A stretch of DNA of 63,248 bases, the filler included, from Collodictyon triciliatum (taxonomy: Eukaryota): assembly GCA_043381765.1 (NCBI GenBank). It is 7 parts of 7 records of this genome, joined end to end, with 100 filler letters (N's around TTAATTAATTAA, not from the genome) between each part and the next. Parts side by side here need not be neighbours in the genome. Positions count along the whole stretch, not along the records: positions 18,776 to 28,652 come from JBHJMP010002943.1; 6 more parts are not named here. The stretch is one strand, 5' to 3'. Position numbers and translations under genes: made by a program. Positions 18,776-24,308 of this stretch are shown in pieces (positions within the stretch are counted from its first letter, which is position 1; the number at the start of each line of letters is the position of its first letter). The notes below the pieces were generated by a model. It was not told the origin of the DNA, ran no database searches, and worked only from the letters and a program-made list of their open reading frames with translations.

Positions 18776-19060
18776 TGTGTGAATGTGTGAATGTGTGAAT
18801 GTGTGAATGTGTGAATGTGTGAATGTGTGAATGTGTGAATGTGTGAATGTGTGAATGTGTGAATGTGTGAATGTGTGATTGTGTGAATGTGTGAATGTGT
18901 GAATGTGTGAATGTGTGAATGTGTGAATGTGTGAATGTGTGAATGTGTGAATGTGTGAATGTGTGAATGTGTGAGTGTGTCAATGTGTGAGTGTGTCAAT
19001 GTGTGAATGTGTGAATGTGTGAATGTGTCAATGTGTGAATGTGTCAATGTGTGAATGTGT
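18776..19060. repeat. (TGTGAATG)n 8-mer array
   Basis: Directly visible. Confidence 0.9.
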
Positions 19061-19098
19061 GAGCGTGTGATTACATATCTGAGTCCGACAATATGCAG

Positions 19099-22000
19099 CA
19101 CACCACTTCATTGGGCCACAATACATGGACAAATTGAGAAGACAATACAACTTTTAAAAAAGGGAGCCAGTGTACATGCAAAAAATAATGCTGGGTACTT
19201 AAATATTTCGTTTCCGATACTAGATACTAGATACTAATCCTTTTTTTTCTTTCTAATTTATATCATAATGAACTACATGTGCCATTTTTCATGCTAAACA
19301 AAGAGCTAAAAGAATCTCAAATTGACGAAGCAATCTTGTACTCGTATTTGAATGTTTATTAACAACCTTACTTAACCTTAGTTACACACCTCTGCATTGT
19401 GCTGCTGAATTTGGCAACGTTCGGCTCGTCCATATACTATTCGAACATGGTGCTGACCCGAAAATGCTGACGGCGACTGGACATACAGCGGTATGCACAG
19501 AATATGCACTTCTATTCATACTTGCATAATCCGCTATATATCACACACGTGATTCGTTATTTCCCAAAAAAAAAGCCGTAAAAATCACATTAAGTCGAAT
19601 ATCAACTTCAGCTGCACTGTGCTGCTCGTTGGGGGCATTTAAGCGTAATGGAAGTCCTGATCGAGCAGTACAAGTTTGATGTGAATTCTCAAGATCAGAA
19701 CGGTTTGTAATTCATTTTTGGTTCCCCTGAGATATGTGGTTTTAAAATAGCCCAGTTTCATACCCGTTTGGTTTCTGTATTTTTTTTTAATTACCAAGCG
19801 GTCTTATCCTTTGATGAAATTTCAGATGGTATTAATGTAATTATTTATCACCTTTTCTCTTCCTTCAAGGCTGGTCCCCTCTTCACTTCGCTGCCTTTCA
19901 CGGCTTTGATGAGTTAGTCAAATTTCTTTGCGCCAACGGGGCCAACTTTTCATTGACGACCAAAAGGGGAGAGGTTTGATTGCATAATCACGCACTTTTA
20001 CCCAGCACCAAATGACTTATACTATACATATGTACGCGACTTCGCAGAGATACTCATTCTGAATAAATTGATGGAAAAAAAAAAAAGATCTTCTATCTCT
20101 GATAATAAGAATTGTCGAAATGACATCCTACACTGTAGACACCCATCCATGGAGCGTCGGTAAATGGTCACGAAAAGTGTGTTGGCTTGTTGCTGGGTGT
20201 TGGGTCCAATGTGAACTCTACAGACAGTTGGGGAGGAAGTACTTCAATTATTGAAGAAATTCTGTTTTATCTTTTCATCACAACATATTGTATTTAAACT
20301 TAATTCAAAACTTTTAATACAAAGAACGGTTTATGTTTTCTTCGATTATTCTATTACACTTTAGTTACATATTATACTTTTTTTCTTCTAGTAAGAACTA
20401 AACCGCATATCACATCATGCAGCACCACTCCATTACTCAAGCTATAATGGCCATGACAAAACAGCCAAACTACTAATCTCACACGGTAAACTCATTTTGT
20501 TCTTTTTTATATACCCTGTAAAAAACAACTTCTATATATTGAAGCCATTTTCCCATAACATACTCTGAAATACTTTTCTACTCTCATATACAAACTTACC
20601 TAATATTGAAGGTGCGGATCCAACCATTCGCGATTCGAGCGGTAGAACACCATCAGATGTAGCCAGCAAAAATTGTGCAGATGTTTTACGAGTACTTTTT
20701 TTTTAAATCAATATTTTTTCTCTCTCTCTGAATGTCGATTTCCATTTGCTTAATGACCTAAATACCGATTCTTGGGCAACAGTAACATGGACCAATAAAC
20801 TGAGGCACAACTTTTGTGACTCATTTGTGATTTTTTTTCTTGCTAGAAATTTATGTAATTTTTTTTCCTATATAGGAGGCAGAGAGGCGTTTGCATACTC
20901 AAAGCACCCGAACTCGAGCCATAAGCGAGGACTCTACTGTAATTACTTATATCAATCACCAGATGAACTATTTGACCCAGTGCCTCTCCGATAGTAAGTT
21001 CATCTGCTAATACTAACTTTGTTATCTAATTTTTACATGTGATAGATTATACTTCAAATTCACTTCGAGGCCACCTCCCGAAAAACTAAAGTAACTCTGG
21101 ATATCTCCTACGAAGCACTTATCTCGAATATCGAGTCCCTATTCTCCATACGATGTTCCTTTAAAGTTTACTACATCGATGAAGAGCATGGTTATGGCCA
21201 TCCCTCTCCAATGAAACATGACCAACAGCAGGTGAAAATAATAATAATAGTAATGATAGTGCATATAGTTATGGAAAATAGTATTCAAACGATGGGGGTT
21301 AACAACTTTGCCTATTTGCGAATATGCATCCACACTACGACAGCCAGTGATATACTTCAACGCGCGCTCGACTATTCACTCCAACTTGGTTCTAATATCT
21401 GGTGACGAGGACCTAAAAATTGCGATGGGGGAATTTCGAAAAAAGAAAAATAAAAGGGTCAAAATTTTTGTCGAGGAAGAGAAAAGTATACTCCACATCC
21501 ACAATATGTTCTTCAAACAAAATTTAAAATATTTTTCTATTGATGATGCTGTAAAAATGAACCACCGAAGAGCGTTTTTATATTTATGCATATACCACAG
21601 TTTGCTAATCGAATGACTTTGTGCTAATTTTTTTTCCGATTAGATCATATTCCCTTTATTTGCATGGTTACAAACACGCCCTTTGCATCCACAATTTTTA
21701 CCAACCCTTCGAATGAAAAGCATACCATACTGGAGCACAGGCTAGTCCGTGTCTCTCCGAAGGCCACATACCAAGAGTTTCGTAATCTCTTGGAAAGCAG
21801 ACTTAAGTGCTCTCCAACTCATGTGTACTTCAGAGTACAAGACTTCTTGGTTACAGTCGATAGCGACCAAGATTGGAGAGAAGTGAGTGTTTCTTTCTCT
21901 TTCCTTTTTCCTTTTTCCTTCTCCTCTCTTCATTTTTCTCTCCTTTCTCCTTTTTGATTTTTCTCCCTTGAAGATAACAAGGAAACAATCACGACTCATT

Positions 22001-22532
22001 TTTGTGCGTGCAATATTCCATTATTTGAATTTCACTGCGCCATTGAACATTGATATCTTTTGTCTAAACCACGACTTATTTTGCTTCCTCTGGGCGATGG
22101 GGACATGATGAGTGTTGCCTTGTTGGAGTTGAGAGTGTTTTTTCCCTTTATTCGATTCAAAGTGGAGTTGAGAGTGTTGATTAATGAGTTGATATAAATG
22201 CAGGTTATCACAGAGTTGCACTTGGACCAAAGTCGCCCTAAAAGTACCTCTCCATTTACCGATTCGCAGTCTCTAGTCGATGTGCACACACATTTCGGCT
22301 CCTTGTCCATGCCATCTCGTAATATATACGATTTTTATCATAATATATCGATACCAAAGAAATCTGGGGAACATGTATTTTTCATATTTGATAGGCCACA
22401 TCTGAAACAGATTACATAGAAGCTTCTCATTTTTCTTCTCTCCGTTAAGAAGGAAGGCCGCTTCTTTATGTTGTAATACCATCTGTGGTCGAACCAGCAG
22501 CGCACAATGCGGAACCACGAAGTGATTTATAA
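19099..22532 (+). CDS. Ankyrin-repeat protein with two PB1-like domains (5' end in gap)
   Basis: Six ankyrin repeats (TPLHWAT, TPLHCAA, TALHCAA, SPLHFAA, TPIHGAS, TPLHYSS). These are followed by IILQIHFEATSRKTKVTLDISYEALISNIESLF...KVYYIDEEH...LVLISGDEDLKIAM...RVKIFV and HRLVRVSPKATYQEFRNLLESRL...FLVTVDSDQDWRE...RPLLYVVI. Stop TAA at 22530-22532. Confidence 0.85.
22124..22178 (-). mobile_element. 23-nt retroelement 3'-end insertion with perfect 16-bp target-site duplication
   Basis: TGGAGTTGAGAGTGTT (22124-22139 and 22163-22178) flanks TTTTCCCTTTATTCGATTCAAAG. The minus strand reads CTTTGAATCGAATAAAGGG-An. Confidence 0.8.
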
Positions 22533-22638
22533 AATAAAATATATTTTAAAAAACATCAACGCTAAATGCAAGGGTTATTTATAAGATACACGTTTTTAAT
22601 TGCCTATTGACGTTGATAGCGGATAGTATAGCGCACGA

Positions 22639-22795
22639 TTTTTTTTTCCTTTATTCGATTCAAAGTGTAGCGAGGTTATGCCATACAAAGGGGCGGGATG
22701 GAGCGCATGGGAGAGAGCAAACGCGAGTAGGAGAAGACACTACCGTGGAGAGGGTAGCACTGGAAAGAAATCAGTGATAGCGAGCTGGTCAGGTG
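22639..22795 (-). mobile_element. Longer (~155 bp) polyA-tailed copy of the same element family
   Basis: Minus strand ends ...CTACACTTTGAATCGAATAAAGG-A9. Nearly identical to 22899-23052. Confidence 0.7.
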
Positions 22796-22821
22796 GGCGT
22801 CCCAACTGGTTGATTGGTTGT

Positions 22822-22899
22822 GATAGTGATAGTGATAGTGATAGTGATAGTGATAGTGATAGTGATAGTGATAGTGATAGTGATAGTGATAGTGATAGT
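22822..22899. repeat. (GATAGT)13 microsatellite between the two long element copies
   Basis: Directly visible. Confidence 0.9.
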
Positions 22900-23052
22900 T
22901 TTTTTTTCCTTTATTCGATTCAAAGTGTAGCGAGGTTATGCCATACAAAGGGGCGGGATGGAGCGCATGGGAGAGAGCAAACGCGAGTAGAAGACACTAC
23001 CGTGGAGAGGGTAGCACTGGAAAGAAATCAGTGATAGCGAGCTGGTCAGGTG
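22899..23052 (-). mobile_element. Second long copy of the polyA-tailed element (3-nt deletion relative to first)
   Basis: Direct repeat of 22639-22795; GAGTAGGAGAAGAC versus GAGTAGAAGAC. Confidence 0.7.
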
Positions 23053-24308
23053 AAATGCAATTTTCATCATGAACCATTTCTCGCCCTCCCATTATTGTTA
23101 GATTATTTTAATAACAATTAGATGGAAGAGGAAAAAAAGAGGGAAAAGAAGAGAAAACTTCACTGGACGTACTTTATTATTTCGATTAATTTTCATTTTT
23201 CATTTTTCGTTATCTGCAGTACCCACGGGATCTTTGTTGTTGTTATTTATTTCTTATGAAAACAACAATTTTATTATCATATCGTGGTATAATTCCATTT
23301 ATTTCAATACACAGATTTGATTCGAAGCAACGCTGGGAAACAAAAGGAAATATGTAACTGTCTAGAAACTGCAAAGGGGTTCCTCGCAAAGCTTGTTCAT
23401 CTAGGAAGCCTTGATATTTCTATAGTAATCGGAGTGAGGCATATAATTTATGCCTTGCAGCTTCTTTTTCATGCGAGGTTCTTGGACTATGCAGACTTTA
23501 TGATTAAATCCACATATGAATTTCTGTTGAGGAATACTTCATCGAAACATTAGCTTGTTTTGGTGGGTTGCTCGAAATAGGTTTTTTTTTGAGGATAATC
23601 CCTTTATGTGGAGGTTCTCTTGCCGACAACCGCGGTATGAGTGAAACAGAAAACTACATTGGAGAAATGTTTTGGAAATGATGACGTCATAAGTACCTAA
23701 ATTAAGTATAATTCCACAAATAGATAGTGTTATATTCAAACTTCGTGCCCATATTTGGGAGATGTCCCGCATTAAGCTATAAGTTTGTCCGAAAACGTGG
23801 TAGTACCCCATATATGGAAGGGGCCACCTCAGAACGTGCATAGAAATTACCCCAAAATTCCTAAAAATCCGTTTGTATAAATTGAATGCGCTCGATAGAA
23901 AATTCGTCCACAAACCAAAACACAAGAAAAATGGCAGAAGCCGCAGAAATCAAGCAGAATGAGAACAAGAGCAGATCCGCTCAAAGACGAAAGAAAGAAA
24001 AATATAAATTGTTCATAGTCGATCAATGCTTAACCTTCACCACCTGCCCGCCCCAATCACAATCTAACACAATCTAACATTTAAAACAAAACAAAAATGA
24101 CTTCTAAAAAGATAATGAGTGCTGCGTAGTTGCCAGCCGCTGCCAAGTAAAAACCCGACAGATTGCTCACCACGCAACAACAGAGATCACCAGGAGGCAC
24201 ACAACCACAGCCGCAGCAGCCAAAGAAGCAGAGAGCCGACCGGACCGAGAAGAAGAGAGAGAAGAAAGCCGCTCAGAGAACAGAGGCAGCAGAGTCAAAG
24301 GCAAAGGC

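What the first reader, a model, noticed from the sequence alone, without database searches (positions are those of the whole stretch)
22124..22178. Ultra-short (23 nt) polyA-tailed insertion with a perfect 16-bp target-site duplication
Seen: TGGAGTTGAGAGTGTT is duplicated around a 23-nt insert that reads CTTTGAATCG-AATAAA-GGG-An on the minus strand. The same core occurs five times in this window on two separate assembly pieces (22140, 22639, 22899, 48320, 53949). Established: a polyA signal, A-tail and 10-20 bp TSD are hallmarks of target-primed reverse transcription by non-LTR retrotransposons. Inference: this is a recently active family that mostly leaves about 20-nt footprints, too short for repeat finders. 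The three short copies stop within about 3 nt of one another, next to a possible CUUUG/UAAAG hairpin. This hints at a preferred RT stop or a defined micro-element rather than random truncation.
Basis: partly seen in the sequence, partly recalled or inferred. Interest (0 to 1): 0.72.

Follow-up and report, generated by a model that had tools for sequence, protein, structure and literature searches.

The report
Tiny retroposed tail with target duplication
A 23-base insert flanked by a perfect 16-base duplication is real and is most likely the extreme tail end of a retroposed RNA copied into the genome of an unidentified protist; this is a familiar kind of event, unusual here only because three copies all stop after about 17 bases.

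Summary
TGGAGTTGAGAGTGTT lies at 22124-22139 and 22163-22178 around a 23-nt insert. The core CTTTATTCGATTCAAA occurs 5 times, all on the + strand, against 0.07 expected.

Best reading (0.55): these are target-primed reverse-transcription products of one A-tailed retroposon family. The evidence:
- All 3 short copies have flanking duplications of 16/16, 10/12 and 11/14 bases. Random-site frequencies are 0, 0.0015 and 0.003.
- All 3 have variable T-runs.
- All 3 have a T at the inferred primer nick.

The 5' ends cluster at 15-18 nt retained, with nothing between 7-15 nt or 20-147 nt in the window. The chance of this is about 0.002 or less under simple truncation models, but n is only 3.

Not supported:
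- The hairpin has a minimum free energy of 0.
- No RT or endonuclease ORF was found in the window.
- The two 148-nt copies are adjacent, share an identical T9 tail and lack duplications, so they may be one event.

Copy number, parent element and empty sites therefore remain untested.

The scan has reported ordinary truncated LINE tails before, on other genomes. I class this as a new member of a known kind; interest 0.4.

The parts
22124..22139 (.). Left copy of the perfect 16-bp target-site duplication, TGGAGTTGAGAGTGTT.
   Evidence: 0 of 20,000 random sites reached this flank score.
22140..22162 (-). 23-nt insert. On the minus strand it reads CTTTGAATCGAATAAA + GGG + AAAA, so 16 nt of the family's 3' end are retained. 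That rises to 18 if the CA shared with the target is counted.
22163..22178 (.). Right copy of the 16-bp duplication. It ends in TT, the inferred primer end of the nicked + strand.
22639..22795 (-). Long copy 1: T9 + CC + core + 130-nt body. The body has GC 0.55, against 0.38 and 0.31 in the flanks. There is no convincing duplication (8/11 with shifted boundaries, random-site frequency 0.03).
   Evidence: (D16, D17).
22796..22898 (.). Spacer between the long copies: a unique 24 nt (22796-22819) followed by a pure (GTGATA)13 microsatellite.
22899..23052 (-). Long copy 2. It is 99% identical to copy 1 (one 3-nt indel), with the same T9 and the same far end (CAGGTG). It has no flank repeat (random-site frequency 0.40).
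48300..48311 (.). Left flank repeat of the second short copy, AATTATTGCCCT.
   Evidence: Matches 48338-48349 at 10 of 12 positions; random-site frequency 0.0015.
48312..48337 (-). Short copy, 26 nt. On the minus strand it reads A + CTTTGAATCGAATAAA + GGGG + AGAAA.
48338..48349 (.). Right flank repeat, AACTATTACCCT. It ends in T.
53929..53942 (.). Left flank repeat of the third short copy, TAAGTCGATCGCAT. With the preceding G it reads GTAAGT, a likely intron donor of a + strand gene. That gene context is an inference from the ORF and splice-like signals.
53943..53964 (-). Short copy, 22 nt. On the minus strand it reads TTTGAATCGAATAAA + G + AAAAAA.
53965..53978 (.). Right flank repeat, TAAGTCAAATGCAT. 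It matches the left repeat at 11 of 14 positions and ends in T.
   Evidence: random-site frequency 0.003.

Best explanation
The 23-nt block is a genuine insertion of the last 16-18 nt, plus a G-run and a short A-tail (read on the minus strand), of an A-tailed RNA family. The same window holds two roughly 148-nt copies of that family and two more copies of about 20 nt.

It was most likely made by target-primed reverse transcription by a non-LTR (LINE-type) enzyme encoded elsewhere in the genome. The proposed steps are:
1. The + strand is nicked just after a T.
2. That T primes on the A-tail.
3. cDNA synthesis ends, or switches to the upstream DNA end, after about 17 nt.
4. A second nick 12-16 bp away, followed by fill-in, gives the duplication.

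Shown: the insertion, the duplications, the variable tails, the multiplicity and the clustered 5' ends.

Inferred: that a reverse transcriptase did it, what the source RNA is, and why synthesis ends so early.
For: - The 16/16 duplication abuts a T-run on one side and the family's sequence on the other.
- The core occurs 5 times against 0.07 expected.
- All 3 short copies have flank repeats rarely seen at random sites: 0, 0.0015 and 0.003 of 20,000. The repeat lengths vary (16, 12, 14 bp), as expected of staggered nicks.
- Tail lengths and G-runs differ between copies: GGG-A4, GG-A9, GGGG-AGAAA and G-A6/7. This fits independent RNA-derived events.
- All 3 unambiguous (right-hand) flank repeats end in T on the + strand. 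This is the base that would prime on an A-tail.
- The long-copy body has GC 0.55, against 0.31-0.38 in its flanks. Homology between the two long copies begins exactly at the T-run. The long form is therefore a discrete foreign unit that shares this 3' end.
- Up to 2 nt of microhomology are present at the 5' joints.
- Every copy lies on the strand opposite to the nearby + strand ORFs. The gene context at 48320 and 53949 is inferred.
- Short 3'-end retrocopies with duplications peaking near 15 bp and a bimodal length distribution are documented in humans (PMC2831318; abstract and Results read).
Against: - No RT or endonuclease domain was found in 107 ORF scans. These covered part of the 157 stop-to-stop ORFs of 90 aa or more. 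36 low-complexity ORFs and 16 overlapping frames inside annotated genes were not scanned.
- The two long copies are 100 nt apart, share an identical T9 and have no duplication. 'Truncation relative to a longer parent' therefore rests on what may be one event.
- The tails are very short (4-9 A), and the duplications do not start with the A-rich motif typical of L1.
- Two of the three duplications are imperfect while their cores are intact.
- Simple processivity models do not give three ends within 3 nt: P is about 0.002 under a uniform model and at most 7e-5 under a geometric model. Plain random truncation is therefore not enough.
- No relatives were found outside the window.
Confidence: 0.55

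Rival explanations
1. The roughly 20-nt unit is a discrete micro-retroposon. A defined short RNA (CUUUGAAUCGAAUAAA + G1-4 + oligo-A, 22-26 nt in all), or a processed 3' fragment carrying the minimal tag that the reverse transcriptase recognises, is copied in full each time. The 148-nt form is either the precursor or a chimaera.
For: - The retained lengths are 15, 16-17 and 16-18 nt. No copy in the window retains 7-15 nt or 20-147 nt.
- The clustering has P of about 0.002 or less under truncation models.
- All three 5' ends can be placed at the same C of CUUUG if one base in the old copy at 53949 is taken as mutated.
- Long copy 1 has a weak in-register flank repeat (8/11, frequency 0.03) placed around only its first roughly 28 nt.
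- Insert sizes are 23, 26 and 22 nt.
Against: - n is 3.
- The hairpin that would mark such a tag has MFE 0.
- The long-copy body is compositionally foreign to its flanks, and homology starts exactly at the tail. This favours a real long form.
- No RNA evidence could be obtained.
- No known retroposon is this short. The shortest I saw named in a search-listing abstract is about 100 bp, Platy-1, described as the shortest SINE in primates. This is a statement about what I saw, not proof of absence.
Confidence: 0.2
2. The copies are retrocopies of the 3' UTR end of an ordinary, highly expressed cellular mRNA: processed-pseudogene fragments mobilised in trans. They are not a transposon family of their own.
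For: - The sequence ends in AATAAA-G(n)-A(n), like an mRNA 3' end.
- The variable G-run could reflect alternative cleavage sites.
- The long copy matches no small-RNA family and is unstructured, with z of +0.3 to +0.4.
- Short mRNA-derived pseudogenes with 15-bp duplications exist in humans (PMC2831318).
Against: - No parent gene is in the window.
- AATAAA lies only 1-4 nt from the tail, which is closer than usual for cleavage signals. This spacing rule is recalled, not tested for this organism.
- 4-5 copies in 60 kb is dense for one mRNA.
Confidence: 0.12
3. The insert is DNA-level filler. A staggered break at 22124-22139 was filled in and sealed, with a short patch copied from the long copy 0.5 kb downstream (templated insertion during end joining), and no reverse transcriptase was involved.
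For: A same-strand template lies 480 bp away. The insert is short.
Against: - The insert differs from the nearby template at the junction: T4-CCC against T9-CC.
- The two other short copies sit on another contig that has no long copy.
- Those copies have their own flank repeats and different T-runs.
Confidence: 0.06
4. The sequence is a + strand functional element: a spliced-leader RNA gene array (exon ...TTCAAA followed by GT), or a pyrimidine-rich intron or UTR motif.
For: In the long copies the core is followed by GTGTAG. The two long copies are in tandem with a 260-bp period, as SL RNA genes often are. That property of SL RNA genes is recalled.
Against: - Variable T-runs precede every copy.
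- The short copies carry duplications.
- I saw no Sm-like site by eye.
- There is no Rfam match at gathering score, and none of 7 weak matches overlaps the element.
- The fold is not better than shuffles.
Confidence: 0.03

Closest known systems
5'-truncated LINE insertions and short mRNA-derived retrocopies made by L1-type target-primed reverse transcription (human L1; short pseudogenes of 300 bp or less, PMC2831318)
   Same: - An A-tail abutting a target-site duplication of 12-16 bp.
- 0-2 nt of microhomology at the 5' joint.
- A bimodal long/short length pattern.
- Insertion antisense to the nearby + strand ORFs.
   Different: - Only 15-18 nt of template are retained, which is far shorter.
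- The tails are 4-9 A.
- There is no TT/AAAA-like target.
- The three 5' ends coincide.
- No autonomous element has been identified.
Stringent-type LINE/SINE pairs that share a short 3' tail recognised by the reverse transcriptase (zebrafish and eel L2-clade elements; PMC4176376, seen as a search-listing abstract only)
   Same: A short conserved 3' block is what every copy keeps. The tails are short.
   Different: The recognised tails there form stem-loops. Here the 17-nt block has no predicted stable fold. Neither a LINE partner nor recognition has been shown.
Tailless retropseudogenes of mammals (PMC5322556; abstract read)
   Same: Small RNA-derived inserts with duplications, truncated at defined rather than random positions.
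   Different: Those elements lack the A-tail and are cut at the 3' side, in single-stranded loops of structured RNAs. Here the tail is present and the defined end is the 5' one.
RTE-related short retroposons (PMC6007223; abstract read)
   Same: The first base of the duplication is tied to the 3' tail of the template, and the tails are very short.
   Different: Their signature is a T starting the duplication about 10 nt after a T stretch. With 3 sites I could not test for such a pattern.

Membership tests
Non-LTR retroposon insertion (TPRT product) | 3' A-rich tail directly abutting one copy of a target-site duplication | tested here: met
   A T-run (the A-tail on the minus strand) lies next to the left repeat in all 3 short copies.
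Non-LTR retroposon insertion (TPRT product) | Target-site duplications of variable length (roughly 7-20 bp), more frequent than chance | tested here: met
   Repeats are 16/16, 10/12 and 11/14, with random-site frequencies of 0, 0.0015 and 0.003 of 20,000. The two long copies fail this test (0.03 and 0.40).
Non-LTR retroposon insertion (TPRT product) | Copies are nested 5' truncations of a longer element | tested here: inconclusive
   Two 148-nt copies share the 3' end. They are adjacent and nearly identical, so they may be one event. There are no intermediate lengths.
Non-LTR retroposon insertion (TPRT product) | An autonomous parent encoding reverse transcriptase and endonuclease with the same 3' end | not testable with these tools
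   No such domain was found in 107 ORF scans of the window. No genome is held.
SINE | 5' head derived from tRNA, 5S, 7SL or snRNA, with an internal pol III promoter | tested here: not met
   Rfam gave 0 matches at gathering score. None of the 7 weak matches (E of 1.1 or more) overlaps 22639-23052.
Processed pseudogene (mRNA retrocopy) | An intron-containing parent gene whose 3' end matches | not testable with these tools
   There is no parent in the window and no genome.
Spliced-leader RNA gene | Leader exon followed by a GU donor, an Sm-binding site and a structured intron part, with the leader found on many mRNAs | tested here: not met
   GT does follow ...TTCAAA in the long copies. However, there is no Rfam SL match and the fold has z of +0.3. 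T-runs and duplications are left unexplained. mRNA 5' ends could not be tested.
Cut-and-paste DNA transposon, MITE or excision footprint | Terminal inverted repeats and a fixed duplication length | tested here: not met
   All 5 copies are on one strand, with no inverted partner. Duplication lengths are 16, 12 and 14 bp.

The most novel reading that the evidence does not exclude
The roughly 20-nt unit is the smallest retroposon yet seen. A defined 22-26-nt oligoadenylated RNA, the bare 3' tag of a retroelement, is reverse-transcribed whole into staggered nicks again and again. It leaves footprints that repeat finders cannot see. The approximate 148-nt copies are its precursor.
Probability: 0.2. 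Interest if true: 0.75.

Novelty: new member of a known kind. Interest (0 to 1): 0.4.

Why it matters
If only the ordinary reading holds, this is a clean example of retroposition in a poorly sampled protist. The best protein match to the window's polycystin ORF is 26% identical among 5.8 billion sequences.

If the tight 5' ends hold up genome-wide, they would show either a hard stop about 17 nt into first-strand synthesis or a defined tiny template. Either result would say something concrete about how a reverse transcriptase engages the 3' end of its RNA. It would also mean that many genomes may carry retroposition scars too short for standard repeat annotation.

Tried and rejected
- **Whole-genome search:** no genome is held.
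- **Sequencing runs:** 20 of 24 listed runs hold a part of 21950-23200. The best share is 0.24, mostly from freshwater metagenomes, across 17 studies. The shares are therefore not evidence of habitat, copy number or expression.
- **Viral scans:** 1 locus with the 18-mer and 0 with a 29-mer from the long copy.
- **Prokaryote genome scan with the 18-mer:** 20 loci, about the number I estimate by chance for that collection size.
- **Check of all external matches:** 0 of 137 combine a T-run of 4 or more with a flank score of 4 or more, and none continues into the long-copy sequence. All were treated as chance.
- **Organism identification:** this failed. The protein atlas gave no usable hit. The CcmH-like ORF gave no hit. 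The polycystin ORF gave 2 distant hits.
- **Literature search for the motif:** 5 papers, all with unrelated primers or sequences.
- **Earlier scan notes:** nothing for this genome or its look-alikes. One sequence hit was an unrelated GATAGT array in an archaeon.
- **Simple recent tandem duplication of the long copies:** rejected. The sequence left of copy 1 is not homologous to the spacer left of copy 2.
- **Coding repeat:** rejected. The + strand ORF at 22627-23034 reads the two copies in different frames and has no Pfam family.
- **Hairpin:** rejected on energy.

Full report
**1. What is there**

The window is not one molecule. It is seven assembly pieces joined by N44-TTAATTAATTAA-N44 linkers. 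It comes from a eukaryote:
- ORFs carry PPR, polycystin, LRR, SPRY, CcmH, ankyrin and TIG domains.
- Introns appear to be about 85-90 nt and begin GTAAG. I read this from the sequence.
- GC is about 38%.
- Microsatellite density is extreme.

I could not name the organism. The polycystin ORF has only two distant relatives, the best 26% identical, among 5.8 billion proteins. Two other look-ups gave nothing.

**2. The observation**

TGGAGTTGAGAGTGTT occurs twice, at 22124-22139 and 22163-22178, around the 23-nt TTTTCCCTTTATTCGATTCAAAG. The core CTTTATTCGATTCAAA occurs five times, all exact and all on the + strand, at 22146, 22649, 22909, 48320 and 53949. The expectation is 0.07. No further copies appear at up to 4 mismatches.

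A scan of the whole window for exact, non-low-complexity direct repeats of at least 10 bp, at a start-to-start spacing of up to 1200 bp, returned 18 pairs. Only this one has a repeat of 14 bp or more around an insert of 15 nt or more.

**3. Anatomy of the copies**

Read on the minus strand, every copy ends ...CTTTGAATCGAATAAA, then one to four G, then a short A-run:

| Copy | G-run and tail |
|---|---|
| 22140 | GGG-A4 |
| Two long copies | GG-A9 |
| 48320 | GGGG-AGAAA |
| 53949 | G-A6/7 |

I scored flank repeats for each copy, allowing boundary shifts of up to 3 nt, and compared them with 20,000 random non-low-complexity sites treated the same way:

| Copy | Flank repeat | Fraction of random sites scoring as high |
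|---|---|---|
| 22140 | 16/16 | 0 |
| 48320 | 10/12 (48300-48311 vs 48338-48349) | 0.0015 |
| 53949 | 11/14 (53929-53942 vs 53965-53978) | 0.003 |
| Long copy at 22639 | 8/11, shifted boundaries | 0.03 |
| Long copy at 22899 | none | 0.40 |

So all 3 short copies carry duplications of 12-16 bp, and the long ones do not.

In all three short copies the right-hand repeat, whose end is unambiguous, ends in T on the + strand. That is the base that would pair with an A-tail if the + strand was nicked there and used as primer.

**4. The long copies**

22639-22795 and 22899-23052 are 99% identical and differ by one 3-nt indel. Their homology starts exactly at the T9 run and ends at CAGGTG. Between them lie a unique 24-mer and a pure (GTGATA)13 array.

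The body has GC 0.55, against 0.38 and 0.31 in the flanks. This argues that the long form is a discrete, foreign unit rather than local DNA that happened to be duplicated.

A plain recent tandem duplication is excluded, because the sequences to the left of the two copies are not homologous.

The identical tail length, the proximity and the lack of duplications mean the two copies may still derive from one event. Possible routes are template jumping or a later local copy. I count them as one or two independent observations, not two.

The long form matches no Rfam family. It folds no better than shuffles on either strand, with z of +0.4 and +0.3. It therefore does not look like a classical SINE with a small-RNA head, nor like a structured RNA gene.

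**5. The clustering of 5' ends**

The number of template bases retained upstream of the G-run is 15 (53949), 16-17 (48320) and 16-18 (22140). The ranges reflect 1-2 nt shared with the target.

A search for a T-run, a C-run and only the first 5-12 nt of the element found no copy that stops between 7 and 15 nt. No copy lies between 20 and 147 nt.

- With truncation uniform over 7-148 nt, three ends within 3 nt have P of about 0.002.
- With a constant per-base stop rate, three ends at 15-18 nt plus one copy reaching 148 nt have P of at most 7e-5 at the best-fitting rate.

With n of 3 this is a lead, not a result.

The hairpin offered as the cause is not supported. The 23- and 27-nt RNAs have MFE 0, and all 200 shuffles fold at least as well.

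**6. Context**

The insert at 22140 lies about 200 bp beyond the last ORF of a + strand gene. That gene has five ankyrin-repeat ORF fragments and two weak, below-cut-off PB1 matches, spanning 19055-21957.

The copy at 53949 lies in what looks like an 85-nt intron, just after a GTAAGT donor that follows a 52-codon open frame. The copy at 48320 lies between + strand ORFs, in an intron or small exon. Pfam gives no support for those two genes, so their context is an inference.

On this reading, every copy has its A-tailed strand opposite to the nearby + strand ORFs.

**7. Mechanism**

The simplest account is target-primed reverse transcription:
1. A nick after a T on the + strand.
2. Priming on the A-tail.
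3. First-strand synthesis of about 17 nt plus the G-run.
4. Joining to the upstream end with 0-2 nt of microhomology.
5. A second nick 12-16 bp away, filled in to give the duplication.

The insertion, duplications, tails, multiplicity and clustering are shown. The enzyme, the source RNA and the reason for the early end are inferred.

Human data show that very short 3'-end retrocopies with duplications of about 15 bp, and a bimodal length distribution, are a normal by-product of LINE activity. The authors proposed RNA truncation before reverse transcription (PMC2831318; abstract and Results read). Defined truncation points are also known for tailless retropseudogenes (PMC5322556; abstract read). 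Links between tail sequence and the first base of the duplication are known for RTE-related elements (PMC6007223; abstract read).

**8. What I could not do**

- No genome is held.
Empty-site alleles, expression, and the meaning of the 0.11-0.24 word shares in public runs all remain open.
- Scans of metagenome, viral and prokaryote collections returned only chance matches: 0 of 137 have the window's architecture.
- No RT or endonuclease ORF is in the window. Sixty kilobases says little about the genome as a whole.
- Supplementary tables of the papers were not opened.

**9. Verdict**

The insertion and its duplication are real. The retroposition reading is the best-supported one (0.55 for ordinary TPRT with an unexplained early stop; 0.2 for a defined micro-element; the rest for rivals).

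The claims of a large, recently active family and of a hairpin-caused stop are not established.

I class this as a new member of a known kind. The scan's earlier notes on other genomes describe similar truncated LINE tails as ordinary. The coincident 5' ends are the one feature worth a genome-wide follow-up.

Noticed in passing
window 24376-25175: An island of 72-73% GC sits in a region of 35-40% GC. Long open frames lie on both strands (562 aa on +, 413 aa on -), and neither has a Pfam family.
   Followed up: partly
window 9629-9728 and five more such joins (18676, 28653, 37258, 46975, 56689): The window is a concatenation of seven assembly pieces joined by N44-TTAATTAATTAA-N44 linkers. Most pieces end in microsatellites, so the assembly breaks at simple repeats.
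   Followed up: yes
window 22820-22899; 10860-10990; 53668-53733: Simple repeats are very dense and very pure: (GTGATA)13 at 100% identity, a long (TTTTGG)n array and a T-run of about 65 nt, among many others.
   Followed up: partly
window 31395-33518 (-) and 45625-46449 (-): A 708-aa polycystin-type channel ORF has only two distant relatives (best 26% identity) among 5.8 billion proteins. A CcmH-domain ORF found none by the word-based search. The organism seems to belong to a poorly sampled eukaryote lineage.
   Followed up: partly
window 19055-21957 (+): A multi-exon gene has five ankyrin-repeat fragments followed by two weak PB1-like ORFs. The studied insert lies just beyond its 3' end.
   Followed up: partly
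window 22625-22635 vs 22664-22674: An 8/11 in-register repeat (AGTATAGCGCA / AGTGTAGCGAG) brackets only the first roughly 28 nt of long copy 1. This is as if a micro-copy had landed there first. The random-site frequency is 0.03, so it may be chance.
   Followed up: partly
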